45,062 nucleotides of DNA from a virus. Its lineage: Duplodnaviria > Caudoviricetes. Below, in pieces: positions 1 through 45,062 of the stretch (within the stretch, counting starts at the first letter, position 1; each line of letters opens with the position of its first letter). The stretch covers positions 1 through 45,062 of the IMG/VR virus record IMGVR_UViG_3300038679_000084. One strand, given 5' to 3'. Position numbers and translations under genes: made by a program. The notes under the pieces are model-generated. The model was given only the letters and a program-made list of their open reading frames with translations, made no database searches and was not told where the DNA came from.

Positions 1-240
1 TGCTCGACGACATGAAGGCTTTCGTGGACGATGAAGGATAAGTAATAATAGCTTAGACAGTAAAGGATGATAGTTATGTTGCTCGAAGCCAAGTATATCC
101 GCGCGGCATCGCACGTTTCCCTAAAGGAGAAAACCAGGGCTTACCTGGGCGGCGTGTACGTCGAGGTAAACAGGGATTACACATTCTACGTGGCCACGGA
201 TGGTCTCGCTTTGTTCGCGGTCCGGCGAGCTACCTTGGAG
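1..240. repeat. Terminal direct repeat / circular overlap, left copy
   Basis: 1-240 equals 44823-45062 except one base (A113 vs G44935). Confidence 0.95.
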
Positions 241-657
241 CCGTTCGAGCGGCCGATGTACCTCATTATCCCGTCGGACGTTTGCAAGGCCGTGCCCAAG
301 GCTACAAAACGGGAAAGCGACCCACGGGTGGAGCTTACAAATCCTCGGGACCGTTACCAGCTCGGCAACCAGATTTTCGACGCCATCGATGGGGCGTTCC
401 CGGACTGGCGACGAGTGGTGCCACGGGGCGACCTACGGGAGCCGCTATCCGCGCAGGATCCCCGTGTCGCGATTCGCCTGTACAAGGCGGCGGCCGAGCT
501 GGGGATCGGCTACAATCCCTCCCAGTTTGGGTCCGGGAGTGGGAGCCCTATCGTGTACCGCTGGGCGATGCACGAGGATATTCTTGGGCTGTGCATGCCT
601 TGCCGCCAGCCAAGGGACCCAATCTCGACCGTGCCGGATTGGGCGAAAGGAGCTTGA
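76..657 (+). CDS. DNA polymerase III beta-clamp-like partial-domain protein
   Basis: Motifs YLGGVYVE, VATDG and IDGAFPDWRRVVP resemble the DnaN central domain. ATG76 follows an AAGGA RBS; the ORF track starts at 67. Confidence 0.65.
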   Translation: MLLEAKYIRAASHVSLKEKTRAYLGGVYVEVNRDYTFYVATDGLALFAVRRATLEPFERPMYLIIPSDVCKAVPKATKRESDPRVELTNPRDRYQLGNQIFDAIDGAFPDWRRVVPRGDLREPLSAQDPRVAIRLYKAAAELGIGYNPSQFGSGSGSPIVYRWAMHEDILGLCMPCRQPRDPISTVPDWAKGA

Positions 658-658
658 C

Positions 659-877
659 ATGCTGCACCCCGACCTGATTTCCCCCCGTGCGTCGCGCGCC
701 TTGGCGGCGCGCCTCACGGCTCATATCGTGTACGGTCCGCCGGCGCGGCTGGCGCGGCAGGACAAGGCGATTTATCGCCATCGGTGTGAGAGTATGTTGG
801 CGCGGGTCCTTGTGTGCCAGCCGCGATTGCGCCGGACGTATTTTGACTTGGACCACGTTACCCCACCGCTGATCTAG
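659..877 (+). CDS. Hypothetical protein
   Basis: AAGGAG RBS then ATG659 (MLHPDL...), the tail end of track ORF 200..877; packed directly after the upstream stop. Confidence 0.55.
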   Translation: MLHPDLISPRASRALAARLTAHIVYGPPARLARQDKAIYRHRCESMLARVLVCQPRLRRTYFDLDHVTPPLI

Positions 878-886
878 GAGGTCATC

Positions 887-1030
887 ATGAACAAGCAGAA
901 ATTTCCGTGGTTTGTTGTCGTCCTGTTTATCGGCGTCCTGCTGATACAGGCCGGCGTCGCGCTCAAGGTTTTGAATGGCGGCCACGCCCACACGCCCCAC
1001 TATCGGGGATTGCATGGAGACAGTAGATGA
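887..1030 (+). CDS. Small membrane protein (47 aa)
   Basis: AGGAGG RBS; MNKQKFPWFVVVLFIGVLLIQAGVAL has one hydrophobic helix; ATGA overlap with the next gene. Not in the ORF track. Confidence 0.6.
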   Translation: MNKQKFPWFVVVLFIGVLLIQAGVALKVLNGGHAHTPHYRGLHGDSR

Positions 1031-1263
1031 CCCTCGCGTTCCGGACTCGTGACGCCGCGGCACGGCTTATAAAGCTTGCGGACTCTACACGCTATGTTGA
1101 TTGGATAGGGTGCCCGATCGATACCACGAACGTTGACCAACGCAAGATGCTCCAGTTTTTCATTGAGGACGTGGCGCTGATCATGGACCGCGTCTACAAG
1201 GAGGCGGGCATTCCGCAAGACACACGCGCGACCGTGACCCGCTTATTGCGCTACGGCGTTTGA
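1027..1263 (+). CDS. Hypothetical protein
   Basis: GGAG RBS, ATGA coupling to the upstream gene, 78 aa. Confidence 0.6.
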   Translation: MTLAFRTRDAAARLIKLADSTRYVDWIGCPIDTTNVDQRKMLQFFIEDVALIMDRVYKEAGIPQDTRATVTRLLRYGV

Positions 1264-1281
1264 CCGTAAGGAGATACCACG

Positions 1282-1443
1282 ATGCTTGAGTCTATCTTCT
1301 TTATTGCCGCCTGCATCCTGATCCACCGTGCGTATGACCGCGCGCAACGCCGCGCGGAGGCGCGGGAAGCGCGGCATGACGAGCTGCTCGCCCGCTATAT
1401 CCACAACTATAACGTGGAGCGCGGCTATCATGTCGAGGACTGA
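1282..1443 (+). CDS. Small hypothetical protein with hydrophobic N-terminus
   Basis: AAGGAG RBS; MLESIFFIAACILIH...HVED then TGA; below the track length cut-off. Confidence 0.5.
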   Translation: MLESIFFIAACILIHRAYDRAQRRAEAREARHDELLARYIHNYNVERGYHVED

Positions 1444-1630
1444 CGCGAACGAACCCCCCTTCACCTACGACTGGGTCGCCCAGTCGTGCGAGGAAGTGAC
1501 CCGGGCGATCGCCGCGCGCGCCGCCCAGAGGTTCCAGGAATGCCCAACCGACGCTAACCGTGAAGCGCTTGAGGCGGCGTGCGCGCTTTTGGAGCAGTGG
1601 ACAAAGGATCGTTGGCGGAGGACGAGATGA
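1430..1630 (+). CDS. Hypothetical protein
   Basis: ATG1430 (MSRTDANEPP) within track ORF 1328..1630; ATGA overlap with the next gene. Confidence 0.5.
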   Translation: MSRTDANEPPFTYDWVAQSCEEVTRAIAARAAQRFQECPTDANREALEAACALLEQWTKDRWRRTR

Positions 1631-2268
1631 CCACGAGCGTTATGAAAACTACAGGGGATGGCACGCGGGAGTGGCGCTGGCGCGGCCAGCGCCACCGCGA
1701 GGACGGCCCGGCTGTCGAGCGGGCGGATGGCACGCGGGAGTGGCGCTGGCGCGACCAGCGCCACCGCGAGGACGGTCCCGCGATCGAGTGGCCCGACGGC
1801 ACGCGGGAATGGTACTGGCACGACCTGCGCCACCGCGAGGACGGTCCCGCGATCGAGCGGGCGGATGGCACGCGGGAATGGTACTGGCACGACCTGCGCC
1901 ACCGCGAGGACGGTCCCGCGATCGAGCGGGCGGATGGCACGCGGGAATACTGGAGGCACGACCGGCTGCACCGCGGGGACGGCCCCGCGGTCGAGCGCGC
2001 GGATGGCACGCGGGAATGGTGCTGGCATAACCAGCTCCACCGCGAGGACGGCCCGGCTGTCGAGCGGGCGGATGGCAGGCGGGAATGGTACTGGCACAAT
2101 CAGCGCCACCGCGAGGACGGTCCCGCGATCGAGCGGGCGGATGGCACGCGGGAATGGTACTGGCACAACAAGCGCCATCGTGCCGACGGCCCGGTTGTCG
2201 AGTGGCCTGATGGAAGGCTGGAATATTGGCGACACGGCGTGCGCGTGGAAGCGGATGAGGTGGTGTGA
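1627..2268 (+). CDS. HREDGPA-repeat (MORN-variant-like beta-hairpin repeat) protein 1, 8 units
   Basis: 23-aa units HR(E/A/G)DGPA(V/I)E(R/W)(A/P)DGTREWxWxxx; GGAGG RBS; ATGA coupling. Confidence 0.8.
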   Translation: MTTSVMKTTGDGTREWRWRGQRHREDGPAVERADGTREWRWRDQRHREDGPAIEWPDGTREWYWHDLRHREDGPAIERADGTREWYWHDLRHREDGPAIERADGTREYWRHDRLHRGDGPAVERADGTREWCWHNQLHREDGPAVERADGRREWYWHNQRHREDGPAIERADGTREWYWHNKRHRADGPVVEWPDGRLEYWRHGVRVEADEVV

Positions 2269-2633
2269 TGGTCGAGAGCGTCATGTGGGTTACACCGGAT
2301 GGCACGCGGGAATGGTACTGGCATAACCAGCTCCACCGCGCGGACGGCCCGGCTGTCGAGCGGGCGGATGGCAGGTTGGAATGGCGCTGGCACGACCAGC
2401 TGCACCGCGAGGACGGCCCCGCGATCGAGCGGGCGGACGGCACGCGGGAATGGCACTGGCACGACCATCTGCACCGTGAGGACGGCCCTGCTATCGAGCG
2501 GGCGGATGGCCTGCACATATGGTGCTGGCACAACCAGCTCCACCGTGATGACGGTCCCGCGATCGAGTGGCCCAATGGCACGCGGGAATATTGGCGACAC
2601 GGCGTGCTTATATCAGTGGACGAGGTGGGGTGA
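2268..2633 (+). CDS. HREDGPA-repeat protein 2, 4 units
   Basis: TGATG coupling; starts MVESV, ends EYWRHGVLISVDEVG. Confidence 0.8.
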   Translation: MVESVMWVTPDGTREWYWHNQLHRADGPAVERADGRLEWRWHDQLHREDGPAIERADGTREWHWHDHLHREDGPAIERADGLHIWCWHNQLHRDDGPAIEWPNGTREYWRHGVLISVDEVG

Positions 2634-3067
2634 TGGTCGAGAGCGTTATGAAGACCTTAGCGGATGGCACGCGGGAATGGTACTGGCGCGACCAGCGCCA
2701 CCGCGAGGACGGCCCGGCCGGCGAGTGGCCCGATGGCACGCGGGAATGGTACTGGCACGACCAGCTGCACCGCGGGGACGGCCCCGCGGTCGAGCGCGCG
2801 GATGGCACGCGGGACTGGTACTGGCATAACCAGCGCCATCGTGCCGACGGTCCGGCGATCGAGTGGGCGTATGGCGCGCGCATGTGGTACTGGCACGACC
2901 AGCGCCACCGCGAGGACGGCCCGGCTGTTGAGTGGCCCGATGGCACGCGGGAGTGGTACTGGCACGACCTGCGCCACCGCGCGGACGGCCCGGCTGTCGA
3001 GCGGGCGGATGGCGCGCGGGAATGCTGGAGGCACGGCGTGCGCGTGGAAGCGGATGAGGTGGTGTGA
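2633..3067 (+). CDS. HREDGPA-repeat protein 3, 5 units
   Basis: TGATG coupling; starts MVESV; same C-terminus as protein 1 (RHGVRVEADEVV). Confidence 0.8.
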   Translation: MVESVMKTLADGTREWYWRDQRHREDGPAGEWPDGTREWYWHDQLHRGDGPAVERADGTRDWYWHNQRHRADGPAIEWAYGARMWYWHDQRHREDGPAVEWPDGTREWYWHDLRHRADGPAVERADGARECWRHGVRVEADEVV

Positions 3068-3573
3068 TGGTCGAGAGCGTCGTGCGGATTACAATGGATG
3101 GCACGCGGGAATGGTACTGGCGCGACCAGCTGCACCGCGCGGACGGCCCGGCTGTCGAGCGAGCGAGTGGCACGCGGGAATGGTACTGGCATAACCAGCT
3201 CCACCGCGAGGACGGCCCGGCTGTCGAGCGGGCGGATGGCAGGTTGGAATGGCGCTGGCATGATCAGCGCCATCGTGCCGACGGCCCCGCGGTCGAGCGC
3301 GCGGATGGCACGCGCATATGGTACTGGCACGACCTGCGCCACCGCGAGGACGGCCCTGCTATCGAGCGGGCGGATGGCACGCGGGAGTGGTACTGGCACA
3401 ATCAGCGCCACCGCGCGGACGGCCCGGCCGTCGAGTGGCCCGATGGCACGCGCATATGGTACTGGCACGACCAGCTGCACCGCGGGGACGGCCCGGCTAT
3501 CGAGTGTCCTGACGGAAGGCTGGAATATTGGCTGTATGACGCGTTTGTAACAGTGGACGAGGTGACGCGATGA
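3067..3573 (+). CDS. HREDGPA-repeat protein 4, 6 units
   Basis: TGATG coupling; starts MVESV; ATGA overlap with the Tas-like gene. Confidence 0.8.
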   Translation: MVESVVRITMDGTREWYWRDQLHRADGPAVERASGTREWYWHNQLHREDGPAVERADGRLEWRWHDQRHRADGPAVERADGTRIWYWHDLRHREDGPAIERADGTREWYWHNQRHRADGPAVEWPDGTRIWYWHDQLHRGDGPAIECPDGRLEYWLYDAFVTVDEVTR

Positions 3574-4514
3574 CAACCGAGGTACTGGATGACACGATCG
3601 ACGTTTATGATCCGCTGATCAAGCGGCTCGATAAGGACCTGCGGCAGACCGCGAAGGCCTTGGGCACCCCCCAAGCACGGTTGCTCGTGGCGACCTATTA
3701 TATGATGCAGGAGGATCGTAAGCGCGCGCGGGCCCGCCTGGGATCGCGCACGACCGAGAAGCCCATGCGCGTGCTCGAGTGGATGGCGGATCAGTTCGGC
3801 TTACTCGAGAAGCGTATCGTGACCTTGCTCGACTTGTGGTCCGAGCATCACGAAGCCGGGCCTTGGCTGCGGGCGCAAAAGGGGGTCGGCCCCGTGCTCG
3901 CGGCCGGGTTTCTCTCGCTCCTTGACATTGAGCGAGCGAGTACGGCGGGTGCGTTTTGGAAGTTCTGCGGCGTGCCTAGTTCAGGGAAATGGCTCAAGGG
4001 ACAGAAACGTCCGTGGTGCGCGGATGCGCGGCGCTTGTGCTTCTTGGCCGGGCAGAGCTTCATGAAAGTATCCAACCGGGACGATGCGTTCTACGGCGCG
4101 CTCTACAAGCAGCTTAAGGCCGAGGAATGGGAGCGTAACCTTTCCGGCGAGCACGATCGCGTGGGGCGCGTGGATGAGTTCATCGCGCGGTTCAAGCCTG
4201 GCGCACTTACCCCGGACCTGCGCAAGTGGGTGGATGGTGAATTTAATCGGATTGAACCCGCGAGGAAAAGTGATGACGGAGGAGACCTTATTGCGTTGCG
4301 CGGTTTGCGCGATCCTGGCATGGATGGCGTTCGCATGCTTCCTCCTTCTCTTATCCTAAGCCGCGCGCGCTGGCGCGCCGTTACCCTTTTCCTGTCGCAT
4401 CTGCATCAGGTCTGGTATGAGGTTCACTACGGCCGGTCGCCCGCCGAGCCCTACGCGTTCGCGGTTTTAGGCCACGCGCATAAGGTCAACCCGCCCCCAC
4501 CGTGGGTGGGCTAG
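3570..4514 (+). CDS. tasA: TIGR-associated Tas-like protein (Nop / IS110 C-terminal domain, no recognisable nuclease domain; TasA-like)
   Basis: N-terminal coiled coil (ARLLVATYYMMQEDRKR), then WLRAQKGVGPVLAAGFL, AFWKFCG, FYGALYKQLK and ARWRAVTLFLSHL motifs of IS110-Tnp/Nop-like domains. No RuvC/DEDD or HNH domain seen. A dual-repeat array begins at its stop codon. Confidence 0.8.
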   Translation: MTTEVLDDTIDVYDPLIKRLDKDLRQTAKALGTPQARLLVATYYMMQEDRKRARARLGSRTTEKPMRVLEWMADQFGLLEKRIVTLLDLWSEHHEAGPWLRAQKGVGPVLAAGFLSLLDIERASTAGAFWKFCGVPSSGKWLKGQKRPWCADARRLCFLAGQSFMKVSNRDDAFYGALYKQLKAEEWERNLSGEHDRVGRVDEFIARFKPGALTPDLRKWVDGEFNRIEPARKSDDGGDLIALRGLRDPGMDGVRMLPPSLILSRARWRAVTLFLSHLHQVWYEVHYGRSPAEPYAFAVLGHAHKVNPPPPWVG

Positions 4515-4717
4515 CTGGACGAGGAAGACGGTTGGAATTTGTGAACGAGCCGTGTCAACTGATAGTTGCGCAATAAGAACGAGCTAAGCTGCTGGATTGT
4601 TGAAGTGGTAGAACGAGCCGCGCCTGCCAATGGTTACCTAGCAAGAACGAGCTGTCCTGCCCGATGGTTGCGAACCATGAACGAACTGGAACGAGATATA
4701 GTTTAAGGATCGTGAAT
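4513..4717 (+). ncRNA. TIGR-like dual-repeat guide array 1 (6 units, 34-nt period)
   Basis: Edge repeats GAACGAGCY/GAACGAACT at 4543, 4577, 4611, 4645, 4679. Loop repeats GACGGTT, GATAGTT, GATTGTT, AATGGTT, GATGGTT, TATAGTT at 4527, 4561, 4595, 4629, 4663, 4697. Unique 9-nt spacers lie between them (10 nt possible at the two ends). Confidence 0.85.
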
Positions 4718-6551
4718 GCCTGTGCTTGCGCTAGACTTCGAGACTTACTATTCGCCCGATTATACACTGTCGAAAATGACCGCGGAGGAATATGTACGCG
4801 ACGAGCGGTTCGAAGCGCATTGTGTCTCGATTTATGATGGCGCCCGCATGCGAAGCGCGCGGGGAACCGATATCCCCGCGCTCCTCAGCGAGTATGACTG
4901 GCCAACTATCACGCTGATCGCGCATAACGCGGCCTTCGACGGCTTCATCTTGACGGACCGCTATGGGTGCTACCCGGCGCATTACCTTTGCACGATGGGC
5001 GCGGCGCGGTACGTTTGGGGCTCGCATGTGAAGGTTTCGCTTGAGAGCTGCCTGGCACGGCTTGGTATGGCACCCAAGTCCGTTCCGTACTCCTCGATGA
5101 TCGGGAAGCGATGGGCTGATATGCATGGCGCGCTTCAAGATCTTATCGTCGCGGGTTGCGAGCAGGATACGCGACAGACCTGGGCGTTGGCGGGGCGCTT
5201 GGTTCCCCAGGTACCGGACCTCGAGCTATCCATGATCGACATGACGGCGAAGCTCTTCACGGAGCCGCGGCTCGAAGGCGATACGGACGTGCTCCAGGCG
5301 CTCGCGCTTCAAGCGCGGCGCGATCGCGCCGACGCGCGCGCCCGCCTTGGCGTCCCGGAGGGGAAGCCGCTCTCGCAGGCCCAGTTCGTCGCGAAGCTAG
5401 AGGAACTCGGGATTGAACCGGAGTATAAGCAGGGGAAGACTGGGCTTATCTCCGCGACGGCGAAAAAAGACGAGTTCATGCTACGCCTACTCGATGGGTC
5501 GTTTGGCGAGGATGCCGAACTCCTGGCGGAAGCGTTCTGCGCGGCGCGAAGCTCGATTCAAGAGACGCGGGCGGACCGCTATCTCGGCATGGCGCGCCGT
5601 GGACCTCTCCCCGTGGCGCTAACCTATAGGGGGGCTGTATCTGGGCGTTGGACAGGCAAGGGGGGCCGGACGAATTTTCAAAATCTCCCCAGGAATGGCG
5701 ATATCCGCAAGTCGCTGCGCGCGCCCGAGGGCCACGTACTGATCGGCGCCGACCTGTCGCAGATCGAATTGGTGATCAACGCCTACCTCGCGGGCGAGGG
5801 CGCGGTGCTGGACGCGCGGCGCGCGAAGCGCGATGTTTATTGCGAGACGGCGAGCGCGCATTATGGACGGACCATCGTGAAGGGGGGCCTGGAGCGCCAG
5901 ACTTTCAAAGTCGTGTGCCTTGCATCGCAGTTTGGATTGGGCCACAAGACGCTTGCCGTCCTCCTACGCATTCCAGCGGACCAGGCGGCGCCGCTCACAG
6001 ACTCGTGGCGCGCCCGAAATCGGCGTATCTGCGCGTCGTGGCGCCGCGCGGCCTACCTGATCCCCGTACTGGCGGGGCTTGGGAAACCTGAGAAATTCCT
6101 CGGCTGCACCATCGAGCCCGGCCGCGTCGTGTTGCCGTCCGGCAACCAGATGCTCTATGAAGTCGAATGGTCCGATGAACGGAAATCCTGGATGCGGCGC
6201 AAATACGCGGCGCAAAGCTTCTTCACGGGCTGTACGCTCTGCGAGAATATCGTGCAGGGCACGGCGCGAGACGTACTAGCGGTCGCGGTTAAGCGCGTTT
6301 GCCGCGCGACCGGCCTTTATCCCGTGCTCACGACGCACGATGACGCGGTTTGGTGCGTCCCGATCGCGCGCGTGCCCGAGGTGTTGGCCGCCGTGGAGGC
6401 CGCGTTTTCCACAGCGCCCGCCTGGTTGCCGGATTGCCCCATTGATAGCGAAGTAAAGGCGGGAACCGATTATGGACTTACCGGAGACCTGGAATTTTAC
6501 ATACAGCAAGCTGCGGGCCTTCGAGAACTGCCCGAAGGCGTTCCACCATAG
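4716..6551 (+). CDS. DNA polymerase family A with 3'-5' exonuclease
   Basis: ExoI LDFETY, ExoII AHNAAFD, motif A ADLSQIE, motif B RQTFKVVCLASQFG, ENIVQGTARD, motif C THDD. Confidence 0.92.
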   Translation: MPVLALDFETYYSPDYTLSKMTAEEYVRDERFEAHCVSIYDGARMRSARGTDIPALLSEYDWPTITLIAHNAAFDGFILTDRYGCYPAHYLCTMGAARYVWGSHVKVSLESCLARLGMAPKSVPYSSMIGKRWADMHGALQDLIVAGCEQDTRQTWALAGRLVPQVPDLELSMIDMTAKLFTEPRLEGDTDVLQALALQARRDRADARARLGVPEGKPLSQAQFVAKLEELGIEPEYKQGKTGLISATAKKDEFMLRLLDGSFGEDAELLAEAFCAARSSIQETRADRYLGMARRGPLPVALTYRGAVSGRWTGKGGRTNFQNLPRNGDIRKSLRAPEGHVLIGADLSQIELVINAYLAGEGAVLDARRAKRDVYCETASAHYGRTIVKGGLERQTFKVVCLASQFGLGHKTLAVLLRIPADQAAPLTDSWRARNRRICASWRRAAYLIPVLAGLGKPEKFLGCTIEPGRVVLPSGNQMLYEVEWSDERKSWMRRKYAAQSFFTGCTLCENIVQGTARDVLAVAVKRVCRATGLYPVLTTHDDAVWCVPIARVPEVLAAVEAAFSTAPAWLPDCPIDSEVKAGTDYGLTGDLEFYIQQAAGLRELPEGVPP

Positions 6552-7110
6552 GTACGTCGCCAAGGACGTACGCGACGAGCTGGGCGCCGCCGCGCGCCAT
6601 GGCACAGCCGTGCACGCCGCTCTCGAGGCCCGTGTCAAGACTGGAGAAACAAGCGATTTGACCGCACCGCATGAGCCGGTGATTGGGCTGCTGCTTGCAA
6701 CCGCGCCCTGGCAAGCGGAGGTCGAGGTCGCGGTGGATGCTGATTGGGGGGCGGCGGCATGGTCGGGATCCTGGTTGCGCGGCAAGATAGATTTGCACGC
6801 CCATAATGCTTCAACTAATCGTGTTGTGCTGCTCGATTGGAAAACAGGTAAGGTCCGCGAGGATAAGTTCGAGTTGCAGGTTCAGGCCGCGCTTCTCGAA
6901 CCGATCTACCCAGGCGCGACGTTTTCGGGTTTCTACTACTGGTTGAAAACCCAGGCGCCCGGGATGCTCTATTCGCTTGACGTAGGCGCCGCGCGGCGGC
7001 GCGTTTCCGCGCTGGCCGCGAAGGTAGCGGCGTCGGATCCTGACCCAAAGCCCGGCCCTCTCTGTGGGTATTGTCCCGTGACAGCGTGCCGTTTCTGGCG
7101 CCCAGGTTGA
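6472..7110 (+). CDS. Cas4-like / RecB-family PD-(D/E)XK exonuclease
   Basis: N-terminal YSKL..FENCP, GTAVHAALE, GKID, LDWKTG, Q..A motif, C-terminal CGYCP...C (1+3 Cys Fe-S pattern). Confidence 0.85.
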   Translation: MDLPETWNFTYSKLRAFENCPKAFHHRYVAKDVRDELGAAARHGTAVHAALEARVKTGETSDLTAPHEPVIGLLLATAPWQAEVEVAVDADWGAAAWSGSWLRGKIDLHAHNASTNRVVLLDWKTGKVREDKFELQVQAALLEPIYPGATFSGFYYWLKTQAPGMLYSLDVGAARRRVSALAAKVAASDPDPKPGPLCGYCPVTACRFWRPG

Positions 7111-7117
7111 AAACCTG

Positions 7118-7355
7118 AAGTGAACTGAATATTGGGATGGTTAATTATGCAGAATGAACTCCACAGGCGAACGCTTGATGAATGCGAATGAACTAGCCGA
7201 CTAGACGCCTGAAGACCGGAAATGAACAGTAAACCACGATCGTTACGCTGCGGGAATGAACTGAAAAGTCCGATCGTTGCATGGCGTGAATGAACTGGGT
7301 ATCTCGATCGTTAATCGTCGTGAATGAGCTGAATACTGGAACCGTTAAGGTGAAG
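7118..7355 (+). ncRNA. TIGR-like dual-repeat guide array 2 (7 units, 34-nt period)
   Basis: Edge repeats (consensus GAATGAACT) at 7118, 7152, 7186, 7220, 7254, 7288, 7322. Loop repeats GATGGTT, AACGCTT, GACGCCT, GATCGTT x3, AACCGTT at 7136, 7170, 7204, 7238, 7272, 7306, 7340. All spacers are 9 nt. Confidence 0.85.
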
Positions 7356-7364
7356 GAGCGTATC

Positions 7365-7697
7365 ATGAACTGGATGGACAATATAAAAACTAACCCATGG
7401 GCGGAGCCTGACGTGTTGGAGTCCGCCATCAAGGCCGAATATCGCGCGAAGCTGCGCGCGATCGGTGCCTACGTGTATAGCGTGCACGTCAACCATTACG
7501 GCCGCGCCGCCGTGGATGACTTCATATGCTACAAGGGCACGTTCTACGCGATCGAGGGCAAGCGCCCGAAGGGCAAGGTTACAGCCCGCCAGCAATCCGT
7601 GCTCGACGAAGTAGCGGCGGCGGGGGGCGGCGTGATCGTCGCCCGCTCTTGGGAGGATGTTTGGCGCGGCATGGGCTTTCCGGCGGACCCCGCGTGA
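7365..7697 (+). CDS. VRR-NUC domain nuclease (putative resolvase)
   Basis: LESAIK, DFIC..G.FYAIEGKRPKGKVTARQ, AAGG..IVARS. ATG7365 follows GAAGGAG; the track's N-terminal extension is array sequence. Confidence 0.85.
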   Translation: MNWMDNIKTNPWAEPDVLESAIKAEYRAKLRAIGAYVYSVHVNHYGRAAVDDFICYKGTFYAIEGKRPKGKVTARQQSVLDEVAAAGGGVIVARSWEDVWRGMGFPADPA

Positions 7698-9091
7698 CCT
7701 GCCAGCCACCCGCCCACTACGACTTCCCCGCCGCGCCCGGGTTGGTACCAATGGACAACCAGCGCATGCGCGCGGCTTTTCTGGCGGGGCACAAGCGGGC
7801 ATTCGAACTGAGTGAGATGCGTACCGGGAAAACACTCACGGCGCTGTGGGCGGCGGATTACATCATGCACGGGTACGGCGACGCTAAGCGTGCGCTGATT
7901 GTCGCTCCCCGCAGCATCATGCGGCTGGTCTGGCTGGCGCACGTGCGCGACCATCTGGGCGGGCATCGCACGGGGGTCGTGCTCGAGGGTGATATGGCCA
8001 AGCGGCGCAAGACGCTGGCGATGGACCACGCGGGCTTCGTGATCACGAACCCGGACGCGCTCAAGACGCCGGTCGGCAAGGACCTCTTTGACATGGCCAA
8101 GGCGGGCGAGTTCGCCGTCATGATCTTCGACGAGGCGACGACGTACCGTCACACGCGCACGAAGCGTTGGCGGACCACGTTCGCCGTCGCCAGCCAAATC
8201 GAATACGTCTGGCTCCTGACCGGCACGCCGACGCCGCAGGCCCCCACGGACGCGTACGGGCTAGAGGCGCTGGCCTTTGGCCCGCGCGGCTCATTCGTAC
8301 AGTGCAAGGAACGCCTGATGGTCCAGATCGACCAATTCAAATGGGCGCCGCGCCCAGGGCATGAGGCCCTGGTCGCCAAGATGCTATCCCCCGCCGTGCG
8401 GGTGCGGCAGGATGAGTGTTTCGCGGTTCAGAAGGCGCCGCCGCAGAACAGGGCGGTTGAGTTGACCTCGGAGCAGAAAAAGGCGTTTGCTTCGCTCCGC
8501 GCCGGCGGCGCCGTGCGGGTCGCGGGTAAGACCATCACAGCCGTGCACGCGGCGGCGACGCGCCTCAAGTTCATGCAGATTTCGGCGGGCATGATCTATG
8601 ACGCTGACCACGATATCGTAAAAGTGAATTGCGCTTCCAGGCTTGAGGCGCTAAAAGAAATCGCGATGGAGGCTCCGGCCAAGATCATAGTGTTCGCATC
8701 CTTCCATGGCGTCCTTGACGTATTGGAGGCTGAGTTCGGGAAAGATTGTGTGAGGGTTGATGGCACGGTTTCCGATAAGCATATCGAGCAGCGCGTCAAC
8801 GCGTTTCAGTCGGGCGAGCCACGTTGGCTCCTGGCGCATCCGGCCGTTGTGGCACGCGGGCATAAGTTCACCTGCGCTTCCACGATCGTATGGTTTACGC
8901 CTACTGACAAGAGTGAGGAATATCAGCAAGCCAATCAACGGATATTTGGCCCTGACCAACAAGCAAATTGCTCCATCATCAACCTGGTAAGCTGCCCATT
9001 GGAAGCTAATATATTCGCCGCCCGCGCGGGTAGCGAGGCACTGCAGGAACAAGCGCTATCGATCATCGAAGGAAAGGGACTCGAATGGTAG
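7694..9091 (+). CDS. SNF2-like superfamily 2 helicase
   Basis: MRTGKT Walker A, FDEA Walker B, LTGTP, IIVFA, QANQRI; GTGA coupling at 7694. Confidence 0.88.
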   Translation: MTCQPPAHYDFPAAPGLVPMDNQRMRAAFLAGHKRAFELSEMRTGKTLTALWAADYIMHGYGDAKRALIVAPRSIMRLVWLAHVRDHLGGHRTGVVLEGDMAKRRKTLAMDHAGFVITNPDALKTPVGKDLFDMAKAGEFAVMIFDEATTYRHTRTKRWRTTFAVASQIEYVWLLTGTPTPQAPTDAYGLEALAFGPRGSFVQCKERLMVQIDQFKWAPRPGHEALVAKMLSPAVRVRQDECFAVQKAPPQNRAVELTSEQKKAFASLRAGGAVRVAGKTITAVHAAATRLKFMQISAGMIYDADHDIVKVNCASRLEALKEIAMEAPAKIIVFASFHGVLDVLEAEFGKDCVRVDGTVSDKHIEQRVNAFQSGEPRWLLAHPAVVARGHKFTCASTIVWFTPTDKSEEYQQANQRIFGPDQQANCSIINLVSCPLEANIFAARAGSEALQEQALSIIEGKGLEW

Positions 9092-9522
9092 ACGCAAGCG
9101 AGCTTTTTAAACAGATTACGGCGCGTGAGTCACAGCTTGAGAATTTCAAGACAGTCGTCATCAAGCCTTTGCAGGCGCAGATCGATGATCTGAGGTCGCG
9201 ATTGGCTGCTTATATGACCGAGCAGAACTTGAATTCCGTGAACACGGATTTTGGGCGCGCGCATTTCTCGACGGCGTTGAGCGCGAAGGTTATTGACAAG
9301 GACGCATGGCTCGACTTTGTCGGGGAGAATGACCAATGGGACATGCTGACAAAGCATGTCGCGACACAAGTCATAGCCGACTGGCACGACAAGCAGGTCG
9401 CGGTCTATGAAAGGGAGAAAGCAGCCGGCAAGGACGTTAAATATCCGGATTACCCAGACGGGCTCCAGGTCGAGCGGGTCCGCAGGCTTAATATCGCACT
9501 CAAGAAGGACGTTATCGAATGA
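9085..9522 (+). CDS. Hypothetical replication-module protein (coiled-coil N-terminus)
   Basis: 145 aa, overlaps both neighbours, sits between the helicase and the putative SSB. Confidence 0.65.
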   Translation: MVDASELFKQITARESQLENFKTVVIKPLQAQIDDLRSRLAAYMTEQNLNSVNTDFGRAHFSTALSAKVIDKDAWLDFVGENDQWDMLTKHVATQVIADWHDKQVAVYEREKAAGKDVKYPDYPDGLQVERVRRLNIALKKDVIE

Positions 9523-10361
9523 TCGAGTTCCCGAATTTGTACAATGACGCGAACGCGGCGCAGGAAACATCGGCGCGCCCCCCCCGCGTCTCGTTGCTGA
9601 ATGACCGTTTCACCCTCCTGGACGAAAACGGCCAGGAAGCCGGGGAAGTCCATGGCGAGTTCAAGTTTATGGTCGCCTACATCCGCCCTTCCGTGTTTCG
9701 GGTTTTCTACGGCAGCAAATATGACCCTGAAAACCCGTCCGGTCCGGCGTGCGTCTCCTACGACGGCAAACGGCCGGATGCCACGGAGAGCCCGGAACCC
9801 CAGCATGAGCTATGCTCGGCTTGTCCCCGCGCGGTCTGGGGCTCCAAGGAAGGTTTCAGCGGCGGGAAAAGCCGCGAGTGTCAGAACCGCGTCCTGGTCG
9901 TCGCCATGACATCCGATAAGAAGTTCTGGCAGTTCGCGATCCCGCCGGCGAGCCAAAAGAATTGGAAGCTGTTCGTGGACGAGCAGCGCCGCACAGGGAA
10001 ACCTTTGCAGGCGATGATTGCCGGCGCCAAGTTCCGGCGGGGCACGAAGATTCTTGAGTTCGTCGCGCGCGGGACAGCGCCGCTGGATTACCAGGAAGCG
10101 ATCGCGACCTTTACCGCGCGCGCGGGTGAGAATATGACTGGCCCACCGCGCGCGCTCGATGTGGAGCTGCTCGCGCCGTACATGTCGCTTACGCCGCGCC
10201 TTACGCACGAGCCCGAGCCCGAGCCCGCGCCCGAGCCCGAGCCCAAACCCGTCTCGAAGCGGCGCGCGGTAAAATCGCCGGAGCCGCCGGCGGAAGCCGA
10301 TGAGCCGGCGGCTGAAGCGGACGCCCTGGCGGCGCACCTTCGCCAAGCATTTGGGCTGTGA
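9519..10361 (+). CDS. Putative ssDNA-binding / annealing protein
   Basis: Cys pattern C..DG, C..CP...WGS, C; acidic and Pro-rich C-terminal tail; position in the replication module. Function inferred. Confidence 0.5.
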   Translation: MIEFPNLYNDANAAQETSARPPRVSLLNDRFTLLDENGQEAGEVHGEFKFMVAYIRPSVFRVFYGSKYDPENPSGPACVSYDGKRPDATESPEPQHELCSACPRAVWGSKEGFSGGKSRECQNRVLVVAMTSDKKFWQFAIPPASQKNWKLFVDEQRRTGKPLQAMIAGAKFRRGTKILEFVARGTAPLDYQEAIATFTARAGENMTGPPRALDVELLAPYMSLTPRLTHEPEPEPAPEPEPKPVSKRRAVKSPEPPAEADEPAAEADALAAHLRQAFGL

Positions 10362-10435
10362 TTACCGGCCGCCACTAGAACTAGGTCAAGCGGTAATCCC
10401 CCCGCCGCCTTCCCCAGGCGTTGTTACCGTTTGCG

Positions 10436-10472
10436 GGGCTTCCACTTTCAGTAGAAGGTGGAAGCCCTTTTT
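10436..10472 (+). terminator. Intrinsic terminator-like hairpin
   Basis: GGGCTTCCAC-TTTCAGTAGAAG-GTGGAAGCCC followed by TTTTT. Confidence 0.65.
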
Positions 10473-10483
10473 GCGGGGTTGTC

Positions 10484-12985
10484 ATGGCGCGGAAGCTTCC
10501 CGGGGCGTTCAAATCTCTAGCGGAATCGCGCGTATGGACGCGCTGGAGGCCTGTCACCAAGGACGGGAAGGTGACGAAGCCCCCGTGCGACGCGCGTGGG
10601 CGGCCAAAGGGCGCCGAGACGGACCCCGCCACGCTTTCCGAGATCGGCGACGCGTGGCCGGATATCGGCGTTATACTAGGCCCCGCGACCGGGCTTATCG
10701 GGATCGATATCGATCATTGCGGGGAAAATGGAAAGTGCGCTAGCTGGCTTTCGCCGCTTCTCTCGAGGGCCAAGGCGGCGGGCGCGTTCGTCGAGATATC
10801 CGTATCCAGGACCGGCATTCATATTATCGGCCGATCGGCATCCTTTCCGAAAGGCCACTCATTCGCGCATCCGTTCGACCCCGCGTTCCCCCAGGCCAAG
10901 ATCGAGTGCTTCTCCGAGAAACGCTACTTCACGCTTGCGAATAACCTCATATTCGATCCGCCCGAACTGGGCTGTATCGATGACGTGTTCCGCGCGGCGC
11001 TCGCCATGGAGCGTAAGGCGCCCAAGAAGGCCGACGAGCTACTGAAGCGGTCGAGCGATGACACGTCCAAGGACTTCTTCGCCGCCATGCAAATCCTTCG
11101 GCGCGCGGGTTGGACACCTGATGAAGCGGCGGCCTACGCGCTTCGCTGGCCGGAAGGCGCCGCCGCGCAGTATATCCGCGAGGATAAGGTTCTCGAGCAA
11201 GCGCGGGTCTGCCATGAGAAAGGGCGCGCATCGGACTTCGGCGACGCGCCCGGCGGCGCGCCCGGGGGCGCGGACGCGGACGAAGTAGAGATTCCTGGCT
11301 ATCACTGGTCGCCAAATTGCGTCACGGATGACGAGGGGAAGATCATCTTCAACAATGGGGTGCGCGCCGTTCACGCGTACCAGGGGGGAATGGCGTCGTT
11401 CGATATCAAGGTTTACGACCACAAGGAAAAGTGCGAGAATACCCTTCACCTCGATTGGCTCGAGACCTCGGGATTCGTGCGGGAGTACACGGGGCGGGCG
11501 TTATGCCAGGCCAGCAACGCCGCGCTGAAGCGCTACCTGGAGGTGGCGTTCGTGCATCTACAGGGCTTGGGGAGAGTAACCCGCGTGCATGATCGATTCG
11601 GCTGGACGAAAGACGACGCCTTCGTGCTCGGCGAGTACGTTTACGCGGAAGGCCGCGTTGAGCCGGCGAAGTTGACCATTGACACCGAGGCGCGCGGACA
11701 GCTTTTAGCCCCCGTGGGTACACTGGAGAAATGGCGCGAAACCGCCGCCCGGCTTTGTCACCCAGGGTTAGAGCCCTTCCTGGCGGCGCTGCTCGCGAGC
11801 GCGGGTGCTCCGCTCATCTCGCGGGTATGGGGGAAGGAAGGCGGTTTCGTCCTATCCTATTTTGGCCACGTGAGCGGGTCAGGCAAGTCCACGGCCTTAT
11901 CGGCGGCCGCGTCCGTCTGGGGCGAAGCCGGGTGCATTGCCCTGGGTTCATCCGCCACGGATCACCATCGGTTTTATACGCTGGCGGTCCTGCGCCACCT
12001 TCCCGTCACCTGGGACGAAGCCAAGAGTACGCCCGAGTCGCAAGGAAAGAACCAGTCAACTCAAACGCCCTTGGTGTCCATACTTCAGGCTTTCACGGAT
12101 GGCACGGAAAGAGGGAGGCTCGGGACGAAGGGGAAGCCCGTCGCGGCGCAAAGCGGCTGGTCAACCGCGCTGTTCATGGCGGGTAACAAGTCGAAAATCG
12201 GCGTGCTGGTTGGCACGGAGGAAGGGGCGGCGCAGGCGCAACGGATCATCGAGTTCAATTGCCAGAAGAAGATCACGTCGGGCATGCTGGGGTGGGCTCC
12301 CTTCACGAAGGAAGACTTCGAGGCGAACGGCGGCCATATCGGGCGCGCGATTGCCCGTTATCTGTCCATCAAGGCGAACCGGGACGCCGCCGTTGCCAGG
12401 CTTAAGGAGGTTTACGCGGGCTATATCAGCGCCACCGGCGCGGATAAGCGCTTTCAGATGCGCGCCTTGTCCGTTATCCGCGTCATGGGCGAAATCATGG
12501 ATGCCGAGGGTTGGCTTCCGATCGACGCCGACCGGCTAGAGAGCGTGCTCATGGAGGCCCTCCGCGCGAGCGAGGTGAACGCGGCGGAGCTGGCCAAGGC
12601 GGAAGAGGCACTGGAGCCCGCCGCGCTTCTCGAGAGCTACATACAATCCGCCGTGCAGCGCGACAGCGTGTTCCAGCCCGGCAATGGGAAGGTCTCGCTG
12701 CGCCGCAACAACCAGCTTGTCGGTTTCCTCGACAGGGTGAAGCAGATAGCGGTCTTCGACCACCATGATTTCGATCATTACCTGCGCTCTCGCGGGTCAA
12801 ACGTGCGCGAGACGCGCGAGGCGCTCGAGGCGTCCAACCGGATTGTGAAGAGCAAGCAGCGCCGTAACCTGGGTCAGGCTGATGGATTAGCCGTGCCGGC
12901 CTTCGCGGATGTGGCGGTCCTAGTACCCGTGGGCGGCGTGGATATCGAGGACGATAAGGTTATTCCATTCCGTCGTGATCTATGA
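10484..12985 (+). CDS. AEP primase-polymerase fused to DUF927-like helicase
   Basis: GIDIDH and SVSRTGIH AEP motifs; RFGW, GSGKST Walker A, WDE Walker B. ATG10484 chosen (track start 10421). Confidence 0.85.
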   Translation: MARKLPGAFKSLAESRVWTRWRPVTKDGKVTKPPCDARGRPKGAETDPATLSEIGDAWPDIGVILGPATGLIGIDIDHCGENGKCASWLSPLLSRAKAAGAFVEISVSRTGIHIIGRSASFPKGHSFAHPFDPAFPQAKIECFSEKRYFTLANNLIFDPPELGCIDDVFRAALAMERKAPKKADELLKRSSDDTSKDFFAAMQILRRAGWTPDEAAAYALRWPEGAAAQYIREDKVLEQARVCHEKGRASDFGDAPGGAPGGADADEVEIPGYHWSPNCVTDDEGKIIFNNGVRAVHAYQGGMASFDIKVYDHKEKCENTLHLDWLETSGFVREYTGRALCQASNAALKRYLEVAFVHLQGLGRVTRVHDRFGWTKDDAFVLGEYVYAEGRVEPAKLTIDTEARGQLLAPVGTLEKWRETAARLCHPGLEPFLAALLASAGAPLISRVWGKEGGFVLSYFGHVSGSGKSTALSAAASVWGEAGCIALGSSATDHHRFYTLAVLRHLPVTWDEAKSTPESQGKNQSTQTPLVSILQAFTDGTERGRLGTKGKPVAAQSGWSTALFMAGNKSKIGVLVGTEEGAAQAQRIIEFNCQKKITSGMLGWAPFTKEDFEANGGHIGRAIARYLSIKANRDAAVARLKEVYAGYISATGADKRFQMRALSVIRVMGEIMDAEGWLPIDADRLESVLMEALRASEVNAAELAKAEEALEPAALLESYIQSAVQRDSVFQPGNGKVSLRRNNQLVGFLDRVKQIAVFDHHDFDHYLRSRGSNVRETREALEASNRIVKSKQRRNLGQADGLAVPAFADVAVLVPVGGVDIEDDKVIPFRRDL

Positions 12986-13340
12986 CGCGCGCCGCCAGCT
13001 CGGCTTTCATATCAAGCATTGACTGGAACATGTCTTCCGCTAGGTCGGTCCGCTGTTTCTGTATGGAGGTCGCATCCACGCGCGTCGCCGTCGTCAGCGC
13101 GATTTGAATAGCCTGGAGCTTCACCTTCGCCTTTTTCTGCCACTCCTCATCCATGGAGGGCCAGTCCGTACTGATGATATCCTCCAAGGCGCCGATCGCG
13201 GCATTGATCGGGAGCTCCTTGAGCGGCGCGGCGGGGTCCTCGGCCGCCTGGCGCGGCGGGGGCATGTCCTCGGCCGCTTGGCGCGGCGGGGGCATGTCGA
13301 AGATAAGAGGCGCCCCCGTGCGCTTGATCGGGCCGCTCAT
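12960..13340 (-). CDS. Hypothetical protein with duplicated DMPPPRQAAE motif (last gene of late arm)
   Basis: 126 aa, ATGA-coupled to the upstream gene, converges on the primase gene. Confidence 0.6.
   Translation of the reverse strand: MSGPIKRTGAPLIFDMPPPRQAAEDMPPPRQAAEDPAAPLKELPINAAIGALEDIISTDWPSMDEEWQKKAKVKLQAIQIALTTATRVDATSIQKQRTDLAEDMFQSMLDMKAELAARVIDHDGME
13236..13298. repeat. 30-bp tandem duplication (in-frame)
   Basis: GTCCTCGGCCGCYTGGCGCGGCGGGGGCAT x2 plus GTC. Confidence 0.85.
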
Positions 13341-14977
13341 TGCTCGCCCGCCTGGCGCGCTCGCGTTCCCGCGCGCAGGAAGTCGGTTAAGCCGGCTTCC
13401 GGTCCGCGCGGAATGAGCTGGTTGCCAAGATAGCCCTGCATGGGGCCGCTCATGCCCAGGCGGGGGATCGCGTCGAGCGCCTGCCGGGTCGCCGACTGCC
13501 CCGCGAAATAACCAGCTATGTGCCCAATACCCGGTGCCATGCCGCCGCCGACCGCGGCGCCCGCCGTACCGCCAAGATAAGGCAGCATGCTGTGGCTTTT
13601 CGTGGCGGGGATGTTATTCGGCTTGCGGCTTAGCGCGTCGATCATCGACTGGGGCAGGTCCGCGAAGTCGCGGGAACTGCCTGGCTTCGGCGCGAACTTC
13701 GTCAGGCGCTGGTTGAACTTCGTCGGGTCAACGCGCCCCGTGAACTCATTGGCGCTGCGCCGCACGTCCTCGAGAAGGTGCCAGTCGTCCTTCGTCTTCA
13801 GGAAGGCGGGGATGTTGCCCTTGCCCTGTTCGCGGGCTGACTTGATCAATGCGCGGTCGAGCGCGTCGCGCAACCCGTAGAACGCGCGTGACGCCGCTTT
13901 ATCGCTGCCCCGATACTTGAACGCGCTCTCCGTGAGAAAGTCGCGCCAATTGTTGACATCCTTCCACGGCTGCTCGACAACCGAATGCAGCGTTTCGGCG
14001 GCTTTGTTGACCTCGAGGCGCGAGGACGCTCCTGAAAGCCGCAGCTGCGCGCCTTGATTATACCGTTCCGCGATAGCGGCCACGTCGCGCCGGAGCGCGG
14101 GATTGGTCCGCAGGATGACGCCCTTAGTGGACTCTTTCGCCGCTTGCCGCAGGCTATCTTCCACCATCTTGATATTCTCGGGCGTCGCGTGCGTCATGGA
14201 CGGGTCGAGGCGCTTCATCACGTCCGCCGTGAACTTCTCTTCGCGGGCGATCGCGCGGGAGAGCACGGAGCCTTCGGCCGTGCCCGCCGCCTTGGTCTCC
14301 ATGGCTTGCAGTTTCGGGCTCCCCGTGCGCTCGCCCGCGCTTACGGGGTAGCCCGCGTCCTTCAGCTTGTCGGATGCCCGCATCTGGCGCGCGACCGCCG
14401 TGGGAGCGTTCGGGTCGCGGGGGAAGGGCGTGATCGCGCGCCCCACGCCACGGATGGCGCTCGGCGTGGCGAGCGAGGCCCCGATCCTCGCGGCGGTCTG
14501 CCCCGCGGGGCCCGCGCCCAGGCCCTCGGCTGCCTGCCCAGCGCCTTCGGAGGCGAGCCCCGCCGCGCCCGCCATGGCGGCCCGCCCACCGAGGCCCGCC
14601 GCTGGGCCGATCGCGGCGCTGGGCAGGAAGCTGGCGGCCGTCTGGGCGTAGCGCCCAGTCTGGCTCTTGGGTTCGTAGTCGGCGCCGATGCCTTGCGTGA
14701 TATCGCCATAGGACGGCAGGCCGATTGGGTTCGGCGAGGTCGCGACGGGCGGGGCGCCCGCCATGTCGAAGCCCGCGCCAACAGCGTCCTGAAGCGTGCG
14801 CGGCAGAGACGCAAGGCCCGCGACGCCCTGCCCGAGCCCGGAGATGGCCGACTTACCGATATCGGCGCCCCAGCCCGCCCAGGACTGCTGCCCCGCGCCG
14901 GCCTGGGCCGGCTCGAATCCCCGCCAGTCCTCGGAAGGAACTTCCTCGAACCCGGCCCACGGGTCTTTTTTAGCCAT
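13337..14977 (-). CDS. Putative DNA ejection / internal virion protein
   Basis: 546 aa; DPWAGFEEV N-terminus and Gly/Ala-rich hydrophobic stretches typical of podovirus ejection proteins; position. Confidence 0.6.
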   Translation of the reverse strand: MAKKDPWAGFEEVPSEDWRGFEPAQAGAGQQSWAGWGADIGKSAISGLGQGVAGLASLPRTLQDAVGAGFDMAGAPPVATSPNPIGLPSYGDITQGIGADYEPKSQTGRYAQTAASFLPSAAIGPAAGLGGRAAMAGAAGLASEGAGQAAEGLGAGPAGQTAARIGASLATPSAIRGVGRAITPFPRDPNAPTAVARQMRASDKLKDAGYPVSAGERTGSPKLQAMETKAAGTAEGSVLSRAIAREEKFTADVMKRLDPSMTHATPENIKMVEDSLRQAAKESTKGVILRTNPALRRDVAAIAERYNQGAQLRLSGASSRLEVNKAAETLHSVVEQPWKDVNNWRDFLTESAFKYRGSDKAASRAFYGLRDALDRALIKSAREQGKGNIPAFLKTKDDWHLLEDVRRSANEFTGRVDPTKFNQRLTKFAPKPGSSRDFADLPQSMIDALSRKPNNIPATKSHSMLPYLGGTAGAAVGGGMAPGIGHIAGYFAGQSATRQALDAIPRLGMSGPMQGYLGNQLIPRGPEAGLTDFLRAGTRARQAGEQ

Positions 14978-44863: not shown

Positions 44864-45062
44864 GTAATAATAGCTTAGACAGTAAAGGATGATAGTTATG
44901 TTGCTCGAAGCCAAGTATATCCGCGCGGCATCGCGCGTTTCCCTAAAGGAGAAAACCAGGGCTTACCTGGGCGGCGTGTACGTCGAGGTAAACAGGGATT
45001 ACACATTCTACGTGGCCACGGATGGTCTCGCTTTGTTCGCGGTCCGGCGAGCTACCTTGGAG
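44823..45062. repeat. Terminal direct repeat / circular overlap, right copy
   Basis: Matches 1-240 with one mismatch. Confidence 0.95.

What the first reader, a model, noticed from the sequence alone, without database searches (positions are those of the whole stretch)
7118..7355. Second, detached guide array of identical geometry 2.4 kb downstream
Seen: seven units with exact 34-nt period between the Cas4-like nuclease and VRR-NUC genes, edge GAATGAACT and loop GATCGTT-like. These repeats are related to, but distinct from, those of array 1 (GAACGAGCY, GATNGTT). Spacer pairs: GAATATTGG/AATTATGCA, CCACAGGCG/GATGAATGC, AGCCGACTA/GAAGACCGG, GTAAACCAC/ACGCTGCGG, GAAAAGTCC/GCATGGCGT, GGGTATCTC/AATCGTCGT, GAATACTGG/AAGGTGAAG. 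No spacer is shared with array 1 and there is no second Tas gene. Inference: one Tas protein is loaded from two separately homogenised arrays (13 guides total), so arrays can occupy other intergenic gaps of the operon.
Basis: partly seen in the sequence, partly recalled or inferred. Interest (0 to 1): 0.88.

Follow-up and report, generated by a model that had tools for sequence, protein, structure and literature searches.

The report
Detached TIGR array with recoded motif
A groundwater phage carries a second row of seven short two-part guide units 2.6 kb from its only gene for the protein that likely loads them; such detached rows also occur in related phages, but here both rows are shortened and carry a changed protein-binding motif that matches changes in the protein residues predicted to read it, so this is likely a naturally recoded version of a known RNA-guided DNA binder.

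Summary
Confirmed: seven units with an exact 34-base period at 7118-7355, filling the gap between the exonuclease and VRR-NUC genes. It is a dual-repeat TIGR array, and the genome has one tas gene (3570-4514, nuclease-free TasA). The register needs correcting: 10-base edge, 8-base loop and 8-base spacers, as in SpTIGR except for the shorter loop. Detachment is ordinary: 4 of 47 well-flanked relatives have a block over 2 kb from their single tas, and this scan noted detached TIGR arrays before on other DNA. The unusual part is shared by both arrays: 34-base units (3 of 90 relatives) and U instead of C in the middle of box C (22 of 25 repeats; majority C in 73 of 73 relative clusters). The TasA has Leu261, Trp268 and Thr272 where relatives keep His/Gln/Arg, Arg (95/95) and Lys (95/95); by manual alignment these are the residues that read box C in PlTasA. 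The processing dyad is intact. This ties array 2 to this TasA and suggests recoded recognition; decay is the main rival. No RNA data, no targets, no spacer turnover seen.

The parts
7118..7360 (+). TIGR array 2: seven units of 10-base edge, 8-base spacer A, 8-base loop, 8-base spacer B, ending in a half edge (7356-7360). Spacers A/B: AATATTGG/ATTATGCA, CACAGGCG/ATGAATGC, GCCGACTA/AAGACCGG, TAAACCAC/CGCTGCGG, AAAAGTCC/CATGGCGT, GGTATCTC/ATCGTCGT, AATACTGG/AGGTGAAG. Predicted 34-base guides start at 7123 and every 34 bases after.
   Evidence: register
7348..7367 (+). Last spacer B and terminal half edge GAGCG overlap the likely ribosome-binding site (GGAG) and precede the VRR-NUC start codon at 7365; no terminator follows the array
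4513..4718 (+). TIGR array 1: six units, same 34-base geometry; its first half edge overlaps the tas stop codon and its last half edge contains the DNA polymerase start codon
3570..4514 (+). tasA, 314 aa, coiled coil plus Nop domain, no N-terminal nuclease; only copy in the genome
4350..4385 (+). Codons for Leu261, Trp268 and Thr272, the changed positions that align by eye with PlTasA H299, R306 and K310 (box C contacts)
4452..4475 (+). Codons for Tyr295 and His302, the retained processing dyad (SpTasH Y289/H296)
4716..6551 (+). Family A DNA polymerase, between the arrays
6472..7110 (+). PD-(D/E)XK (Cas4-like) exonuclease; stops 7 bases before array 2
7365..7697 (+). VRR-NUC endonuclease, 110 aa from the likely start at 7365 (the ORF listed from 7290 runs through the array)
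7694..9091 (+). SNF2-type helicase, overlapping the VRR-NUC stop

Best explanation
The stretch is a second dual-repeat TIGR array of a phage that has one nuclease-free tasA gene, and it is likely transcribed within the replication-gene message, likely cut by that TasA into 34-base guides, and likely used to steer TasA to bind, without cutting, 16-base-pair DNA sites in the host or in competing elements. Shown: the array, its geometry, the single tasA, the lack of a nuclease domain, the intact Tyr/His dyad and the unwinding pair (Phe158/Lys166). Inferred from SpTasH: the cut falls after base 5 of each full edge; six guides (units 1-6) would be released from array 2 and four from array 1; spacer A pairs with one strand and spacer B with the other. 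Inferred from stem-loop TasA/dead TasR: bound TasA blocks transcription. Inferred here: TasA and both arrays have moved together from box C = CCA to CUR/UUR, with Leu261, Trp268 and Thr272 replacing the usual box C readers, which is why array 2 is assigned to this protein.
For: Tas identity: phmmer hits TaTasR (9MTY, E 4e-9, from query residue 40 to the chain's residue 114) and SpTasH (E 3e-5); profile E 2e-28 and 1e-16; model pLDDT 85, all 10 Foldseek matches with E<=0.001 are TasH or TasR chains. Same repeat family as 90 of 95 relative clusters with arrays and as the SpTasH guide. Edge positions 4 and 7 pair as C-G in 4 of 5 array-1 edges and as U-A (6) or U-G (1) in 7 of 7 array-2 edges, the covarying pair described by Faure et al.. 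U in the middle of box C in 9 of 11 and 13 of 14 repeats against 2 of 965 edges and 5 of 1034 loops of relatives. Arg and Lys in 95 of 95 relatives where this protein has Trp268 and Thr272; Lys also in 29 of 29 GTDB loci that cover the site. The two arrays fill the only two gaps between 1579 and 10361; all other genes there overlap. The pattern of the changed unit occurs only in 3 records of this phage in IMG/VR and in 0 GTDB genomes.
Against: No transcription, binding or processing was observed. No target: 0 sites with 2 or fewer mismatches in the own genome and 0 exact sites in 1.6 Mb of related loci; no excess of targets for 1034 guides of relatives either. The box D-box C pair (edge positions 3 and 8) is A-C in 11 of 12 edges, a state held by 78 of 965 edges of relatives, and loop positions 3 and 6 are T-T, C-T or C-C in all 13 loops. 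The protein departs at 28 of 100 conserved columns (median 6) and sits on a long branch, which also fits decay. The covariation rests on one lineage, and the mapping to PlTasA residues was done by eye. Repression has been shown for stem-loop systems, not for a dual-repeat TasA.
Confidence: 0.68

Rival explanations
1. The system is decaying: TasA lost its box C readers, no longer loads guides, and both arrays are drifting relics.
For: 28 of 100 conserved columns changed, end branch 1.97 against a median of 0.37; box D-box C pair broken in 11 of 12 edges; loops of units 2 and 3 are degenerate; no spacer variant in any holder.
Against: The frame is intact, with Tyr295/His302, Phe158/Lys166, Lys183 and Arg265 kept; seven units keep exact phase; the box C change is one new state fixed in 22 of 25 repeats of two separate arrays rather than scattered change; the edge 4-7 pair changed on both sides; codon GC3 of tas (0.74) is like that of its neighbours (0.67-0.79).
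Confidence: 0.15
2. The arrays act mainly in cis: TasA cuts or sits on the operon message at the two arrays and so tunes translation of DNA polymerase and of VRR-NUC plus helicase.
For: In both arrays the last unit holds the likely ribosome-binding site of the next gene, the start codons lie 2 and 9 bases from the start of the last half edge, and no terminator follows. In relatives the next start lay within 15 bases of the last matched edge in 6 of 108 blocks (71 had a callable start; median 62).
Against: Eleven of 13 units carry no translation signal, and one or two units would do for such a switch; the spacers are all different, with 50% GC as in guides of relatives with similar genome GC. 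Tight packing of a phage operon explains the overlap without regulation. It can hold alongside the best explanation.
Confidence: 0.09
3. Array 2 is an orphan brought in from another TIGR lineage and is read by a Tas of another element, not by this one.
For: The edge differs at a fixed column between the arrays, which none of 17 multi-block relatives shows (best p 0.029); 0 of 8 syntenic relatives have an array in the stretch before the helicase.
Against: Both arrays share the 8-base loop and the U in box C; the joint pattern is found in no other IMG/VR or GTDB record; the three other 34-base systems keep C in box C.
Confidence: 0.07
4. The repeat is chance or a coding repeat.
For: An ORF can be read from 7290 through the last units.
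Against: Phased score 99.5 against a background maximum of -12.8; five of seven units lie outside that ORF; the strong ribosome-binding site points to 7365.
Confidence: 0.01

Closest known systems
SpTIGR-TasH of Salicola phage CGphi29 (Faure et al. 2025, PMC12045711; Zhou et al. 2026, PMC13421893)
   Same: Same repeat family (purine-A start, 10-base edge), 8-base spacers, Tyr/His processing dyad 7 residues apart, aromatic/basic unwinding pair.
   Different: No HNH domain here; loop 8 instead of 10 bases (34 against 36); box C CUR/UUR instead of CCA; the Arg and Lys that align with SpTasH R263/K267 are Trp and Thr.
Dual-repeat TIGR-TasA (FpTasA; phage loci of Faure et al. 2025; TIGRFinder set of Xu et al. 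2026, 10.64898/2026.09.09.750476)
   Same: Solo Nop-domain protein with alternating edge and loop repeats, half edges at the ends, arrays placed flexibly around tas.
   Different: Described as uniform 36-base guides with 8-12-base repeats and a terminator after the array; here 34 bases, no terminator, and a second array two genes away inside the replication operon. TIGRFinder seeds need a 4-base gap and extends over 4-5 bases; the loop gap here is 2, so it would likely miss both arrays.
PlTasA stem-loop TIGR with three sub-arrays (Faure et al. 2025; Guan et al. 2026, 10.64898/2026.08.11.744272)
   Same: Nuclease-free TasA loaded from separated sub-arrays, all expressed and processed.
   Different: Stem-loop rather than dual-repeat; sub-arrays about 450 bases apart; it keeps H299, R306 and K310, which this protein has replaced.
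Uncultured relatives L055, L071, L019, L004
   Same: One tas per record and a dual-repeat block 2.4, 4.6, 8.9 and 3.7 kb away; L055 also has the polymerase/VRR-NUC/helicase module.
   Different: 36-base units, box C CCA or CCG, and no fixed repeat difference between their blocks.

Membership tests
Dual-repeat TIGR-TasA | Tas protein with coiled coil and Nop domain in the same element | tested here: met
   single copy
Dual-repeat TIGR-TasA | No N-terminal nuclease (TasA) | tested here: met
   Residue 40 aligns to residue 114 of the TaTasR chain; the model is all helical from residue 13
Dual-repeat TIGR-TasA | Alternating edge and loop repeats around two variable 8-9-base spacers, half edge at the end | tested here: met
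Dual-repeat TIGR-TasA | Box C and box D ends shared by edge and loop | tested here: met
   Both begin RA and end YTR in most repeats; the motif is not the usual CCA
Dual-repeat TIGR-TasA | Extra covarying base pair in the edge repeat | tested here: met
   C-G in 4 of 5 array-1 edges, U-A or U-G in 7 of 7 array-2 edges
Dual-repeat TIGR-TasA | Watson-Crick pair between box D and box C | tested here: not met
   Positions 3 and 8 are A-C in 11 of 12 edges; G-C only in the first edge of array 2. In relatives 821 of 965 edges pair there. Typical but not universal in the clade.
Dual-repeat TIGR-TasA | 36-base unit | tested here: not met
   34 bases here; largest block 36 in 76, 35 in 6, 34 in 3 and 37-39 in 5 of 90 relative clusters, so the length is typical rather than defining
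Dual-repeat TIGR-TasA | Tyr/His processing dyad in the C-terminal loop | tested here: met
   Tyr295 and His302
Dual-repeat TIGR-TasA | Terminator after the array (typical) | tested here: not met
   No terminator-like site on + after either array; the next gene starts at once
Dual-repeat TIGR-TasA | Array transcribed and processed into unit-length RNAs bound by Tas | not testable with these tools
   Needs a pull-down or small-RNA reads
Dual-repeat TIGR-TasA | Guides direct binding to a two-strand DNA target | tested here: inconclusive
   No target above chance
IS110 transposase with bridge RNA | N-terminal RuvC-like DEDD domain and a single bridge RNA | tested here: not met
   Only a weak Transposase_20 hit (E 0.0012); no N-terminal domain; IS621 ranks below all Tas chains

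The most novel reading that the evidence does not exclude
This is a naturally recoded, orthogonal TIGR system: the TasA has exchanged its box C-reading residues (His to Leu, Arg to Trp, Lys to Thr) in step with a CCA to CUR/UUR change and a two-base shorter loop in both arrays, so it loads only its own 34-base guides and ignores standard ones; because the arrays sit terminator-free in the replication operon with ribosome-binding sites in their last units, guide maturation also cuts and tunes the polymerase and helicase message.
Probability: 0.3. Interest if true: 0.72.

Novelty: new variant of a known kind. Interest (0 to 1): 0.45.

Why it matters
A detached array alone adds little: it recurs in relatives and in earlier scan notes. 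If the paired change in box C and in its reading residues is functional, it is a natural experiment on the RNA-protein code of Nop-domain guides, gives a candidate orthogonal TIGR pair for multiplexed repression, and shows that motif-anchored finders with a fixed 4-base gap undercount arrays. Two arrays that differ by a compensated edge pair also bear on the open question of how TIGR arrays are copied and homogenised without adaptation genes.

Tried and rejected
Rfam: 0 matches in the window; Tandem Repeats Finder lists neither array. Further units: the best site outside the arrays is a lone unit at 13411 (16 bits, no second edge), as expected by chance in 90,000 positions. Self-targets: 16 sites at 3 mismatches against 11.9 in shuffles, none better. 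Guides aimed at arrays or genes of relatives: 0 exact, 3 one-mismatch sites against 0-3 in 8 shuffles. Target geometry from 1034 guides of relatives: no excess over controls. First and last spacer A alike (7 of 8): 0 of 94 blocks of relatives show this, and near-identical pairs make up 0.5% of other pairs, about a 10% chance per 7-unit array; not a rule. Hairpins between spacers and loops: p 0.57. Promoter scan: no sigma-70-like site on + in 1-13500 (low power). One origin of 34-base units: the quick tree needs 3 changes and starred branches force only 1; undecided. Spacer turnover: only identical copies; low-depth runs X8 and X10 cover parts of array 2 with 0 differences. No RNA holder listed. 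DNA for P0029, P0056 and P0057 was not found in IMG/VR, nor for P0056 in plasmids; no cultured phage has a tblastn match to this TasA. The whole-library HMMER search was not obtained, so distant relatives sharing the three substitutions may exist unseen. A role for the Cas4-like gene in spacer gain is not supported: relative L278 has polymerase, exonuclease and helicase with no array in the stretch fetched.

Full report
Observation. The window is one complete virus record of 45,062 bases with terminase, portal and capsid genes on the minus strand and a replication operon on the plus strand; its polymerase is about 30% identical to those of Pseudomonas phage KPP25 and Rhizobium phages, and holders are groundwater and coal metagenomes. 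Seven units start at 7118 with an exact 34-base period, and the spacer pairs are as listed. A profile trained only on array 1 gives these seven phased units 99.5 bits; the best of 88,750 other positions gives -12.8. The stretch is identical in 3 of 3 IMG/VR records and in contigs from 4 of 4 runs laid, which may be the source samples.

The protein. Gene 3570-4514 (314 aa) matches TaTasR (9MTY, E 4e-9) and SpTasH (E 3e-5), more strongly with a profile (E 2e-28, 1e-16). Its model (pLDDT 85) has 10 Foldseek matches at E<=0.001, all TasH or TasR chains. There is no room for an N-terminal nuclease, so it is a TasA. It is the only one in the genome.

Register. Their arrays have 10-base repeats of the type GAGCGAGCCA and GAGAGAACCA with 8-base spacers, the same family as the SpTasH guide in Table S3 of Faure et al., and SpTasH forms 8-base-pair hybrids. 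Read this way the window's units are a 10-base edge, 8-base spacer, 8-base loop and 8-base spacer. Array 2 ends in the half edge GAGCG, as Faure et al. describe for array ends. By analogy with SpTasH the cut would fall after base 5 of each edge and give 34-base guides. Faure et al. found that full edges are needed, so unit 7 of array 2 and units 1 and 6 of array 1 may not be released; about 10 guides rather than 13 (inference).

Is detachment unusual? No. Of 95 clusters, 90 have an array and 25 have two or more blocks. Of the 47 with at least 3 kb on both sides, 6 have a block over 1 kb and 4 over 2 kb from tas (L004, L019, L055, L071; 0 false blocks on the reverse strands of 1.6 Mb). Each of these four records has one tas, though they are 30-95% complete. 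Unit counts are inflated where loops match the edge profile, so I use only block positions. Faure et al. report arrays on either side and a stem-loop array in three sub-arrays, all processed; Xu et al. report flexible placement. Earlier notes of this scan list detached arrays in other genomes (unchecked). The position is specific to this phage: 0 of 8 syntenic relatives have an array in the stretch before the helicase.

What is unusual. (1) Unit length 34 occurs in 3 of 90 clusters; the three Tas papers listed in the search for tigRNA with '34-nt' or '34 nt' have 0 occurrences in their main text, and I could not see fig. S4 of Faure et al. or the bioRxiv supplements, which may show such units. 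(2) The middle base of box C is T in 9 of 11 array-1 and 13 of 14 array-2 repeats, against 2 of 965 edges and 5 of 1034 loops in relatives and a majority of C in 73 of 73 clusters. My unit caller rewarded C at that place and dropped 83 of 1338 units, so those counts lean to C; the motif-free consensus lines show the same, and the three other 34-base systems keep C. A U there is known from stem-loop systems (CUU, CTA). A pattern for the changed unit matches only 3 records of this phage in IMG/VR and 0 GTDB genomes. (3) The TasA has Trp268 and Thr272 where 95 of 95 relatives have Arg and Lys, and Leu261 where they have His, Gln or Arg; 29 of 29 GTDB loci that cover the site also keep Lys. Guan et al. 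state that PlTasA R306 and K310 contact box C bases and H299 stacks on its adenine. Counting along the PlTasA sequence and SpTasH by eye, the His, Arg(+7), Lys(+11) spacing puts these at 261, 268 and 272 here. An Arg sits one place on, at 269. The dyad Tyr295/His302 (SpTasH Y289/H296) and the unwinding pair Phe158/Lys166 (SpTasH W203/K211; Phe tolerated) are kept. Two proteins from the search, P0056 and P0057, replace the same three residues and P0029 one of them, but their DNA was not found.

Separate homogenisation. Edge position 4 is C in 5 of 5 array-1 edges and T in 7 of 7 array-2 edges (p 0.0013; about 0.013 over ten columns), with position 7 changing from G to A so that the pair is kept. 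None of 17 multi-block relatives shows a fixed difference (best p 0.029). This fits one ancestral array copied once and then homogenised locally (inference).

Setting. From 1579 to 10361 every gene overlaps the next except at the two arrays. Array 2 begins 7 bases after the exonuclease stop, its last unit holds the likely ribosome-binding site of VRR-NUC (start 7365), and array 1 ends on the polymerase start codon. No terminator-like site follows either. So the arrays are most likely read as part of the operon message, and processing would cut that message (inference). Such close starts are uncommon in relatives (6 of 108 blocks within 15 bases, 37 without a callable start).

Function. Nuclease-free and dead Tas proteins repress transcription in E. 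coli reporters (Xu et al.; stem-loop systems). I take binding and repression of host or competitor DNA as the most likely output. No target was found above chance, which is the usual state for this family.

Against. No RNA evidence. The protein departs at 28 of 100 conserved columns (median 6) and has the longest branch in a quick tree (1.97); the box D-box C pair is A-C in 11 of 12 edges. Decay therefore stays open (0.15). The covariation is one lineage.

Papers seen. PMC12045711: parts 1-4 of 12 of the text, passages, and rows of Tables S1 and S3. 10.64898/2026.09.09.750476: parts 1-6 of 7 (the start of the dual-repeat method is missing from the held text). PMC13421893: part 1 of 5, section 15, passages. 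10.64898/2026.08.11.744272: part 1 of 6, section 5, passages. The Mol Cell paper on SpTasH was not read and is cited through these. Literature searches; 'orphan' has 0 occurrences in the four TIGR papers listed.

Verdict. A real second TIGR array, probably loaded by the single TasA. Detachment is ordinary; the 34-base unit with a changed box C and matching protein changes makes it a new variant of a known kind. Interest 0.45.

Noticed in passing
window 1579-3573: Four overlapping genes built from a 69-base (23-residue) repeat lie directly upstream of tasA; only weak DUF6745 hits. Low-depth runs show differing letters and loose ends at 3400-3530, which may be variants or mis-laid sister repeats.
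   Followed up: partly
P0056, P0057, P0029 (alignment A1): P0056 and P0057 replace the same three putative box C readers (Ile, His, Leu); P0029 has Thr at the Lys site. Their arrays would test the covariation; DNA not found.
   Followed up: partly
L071:7114-16068: Five to six TIGR blocks spread from 2.9 kb upstream to 5.1 kb downstream of one tas, all with the same repeats and box C CCG.
   Followed up: partly
L019:685-1090: A TIGR block 8.9 kb upstream of the only tas of its record, just before an ERF recombinase gene.
   Followed up: partly
L008:9241-9983, L148:1349-2062, L152: Other 34-base systems (10-base edge, 8-base loop) with a standard box C and standard Arg/Lys; L139 and L156 shorten the edge instead (35 bases); L130 has 38.
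   Followed up: partly
L301:7612-8674: Chloroflexota MAG with 35-base TIGR blocks about 0.8 and 1.6 kb downstream of tas.
   Followed up: no
window 7128-7135 and 7332-7339: Spacer A of units 1 and 7 of array 2 differ by one base; not a general rule in relatives.
   Followed up: yes
window 4689-4696: Spacer A of the last unit of array 1 resembles the edge repeat itself (GAACGAG), perhaps a trace of slippage.
   Followed up: no
window 13411-13444: Lone unit-like site on + inside a minus-strand gene, 16 bits, no following edge; compatible with chance.
   Followed up: yes
window 1-240 and 44823-45062: 240-base direct repeat at the two ends with one difference; L002 reads across the join, so it is likely an assembly overlap of a circularly permuted genome.
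   Followed up: partly
window 42128-42478: Ribbon-helix-helix (ParD-like) gene just before the terminase gene.
   Followed up: no
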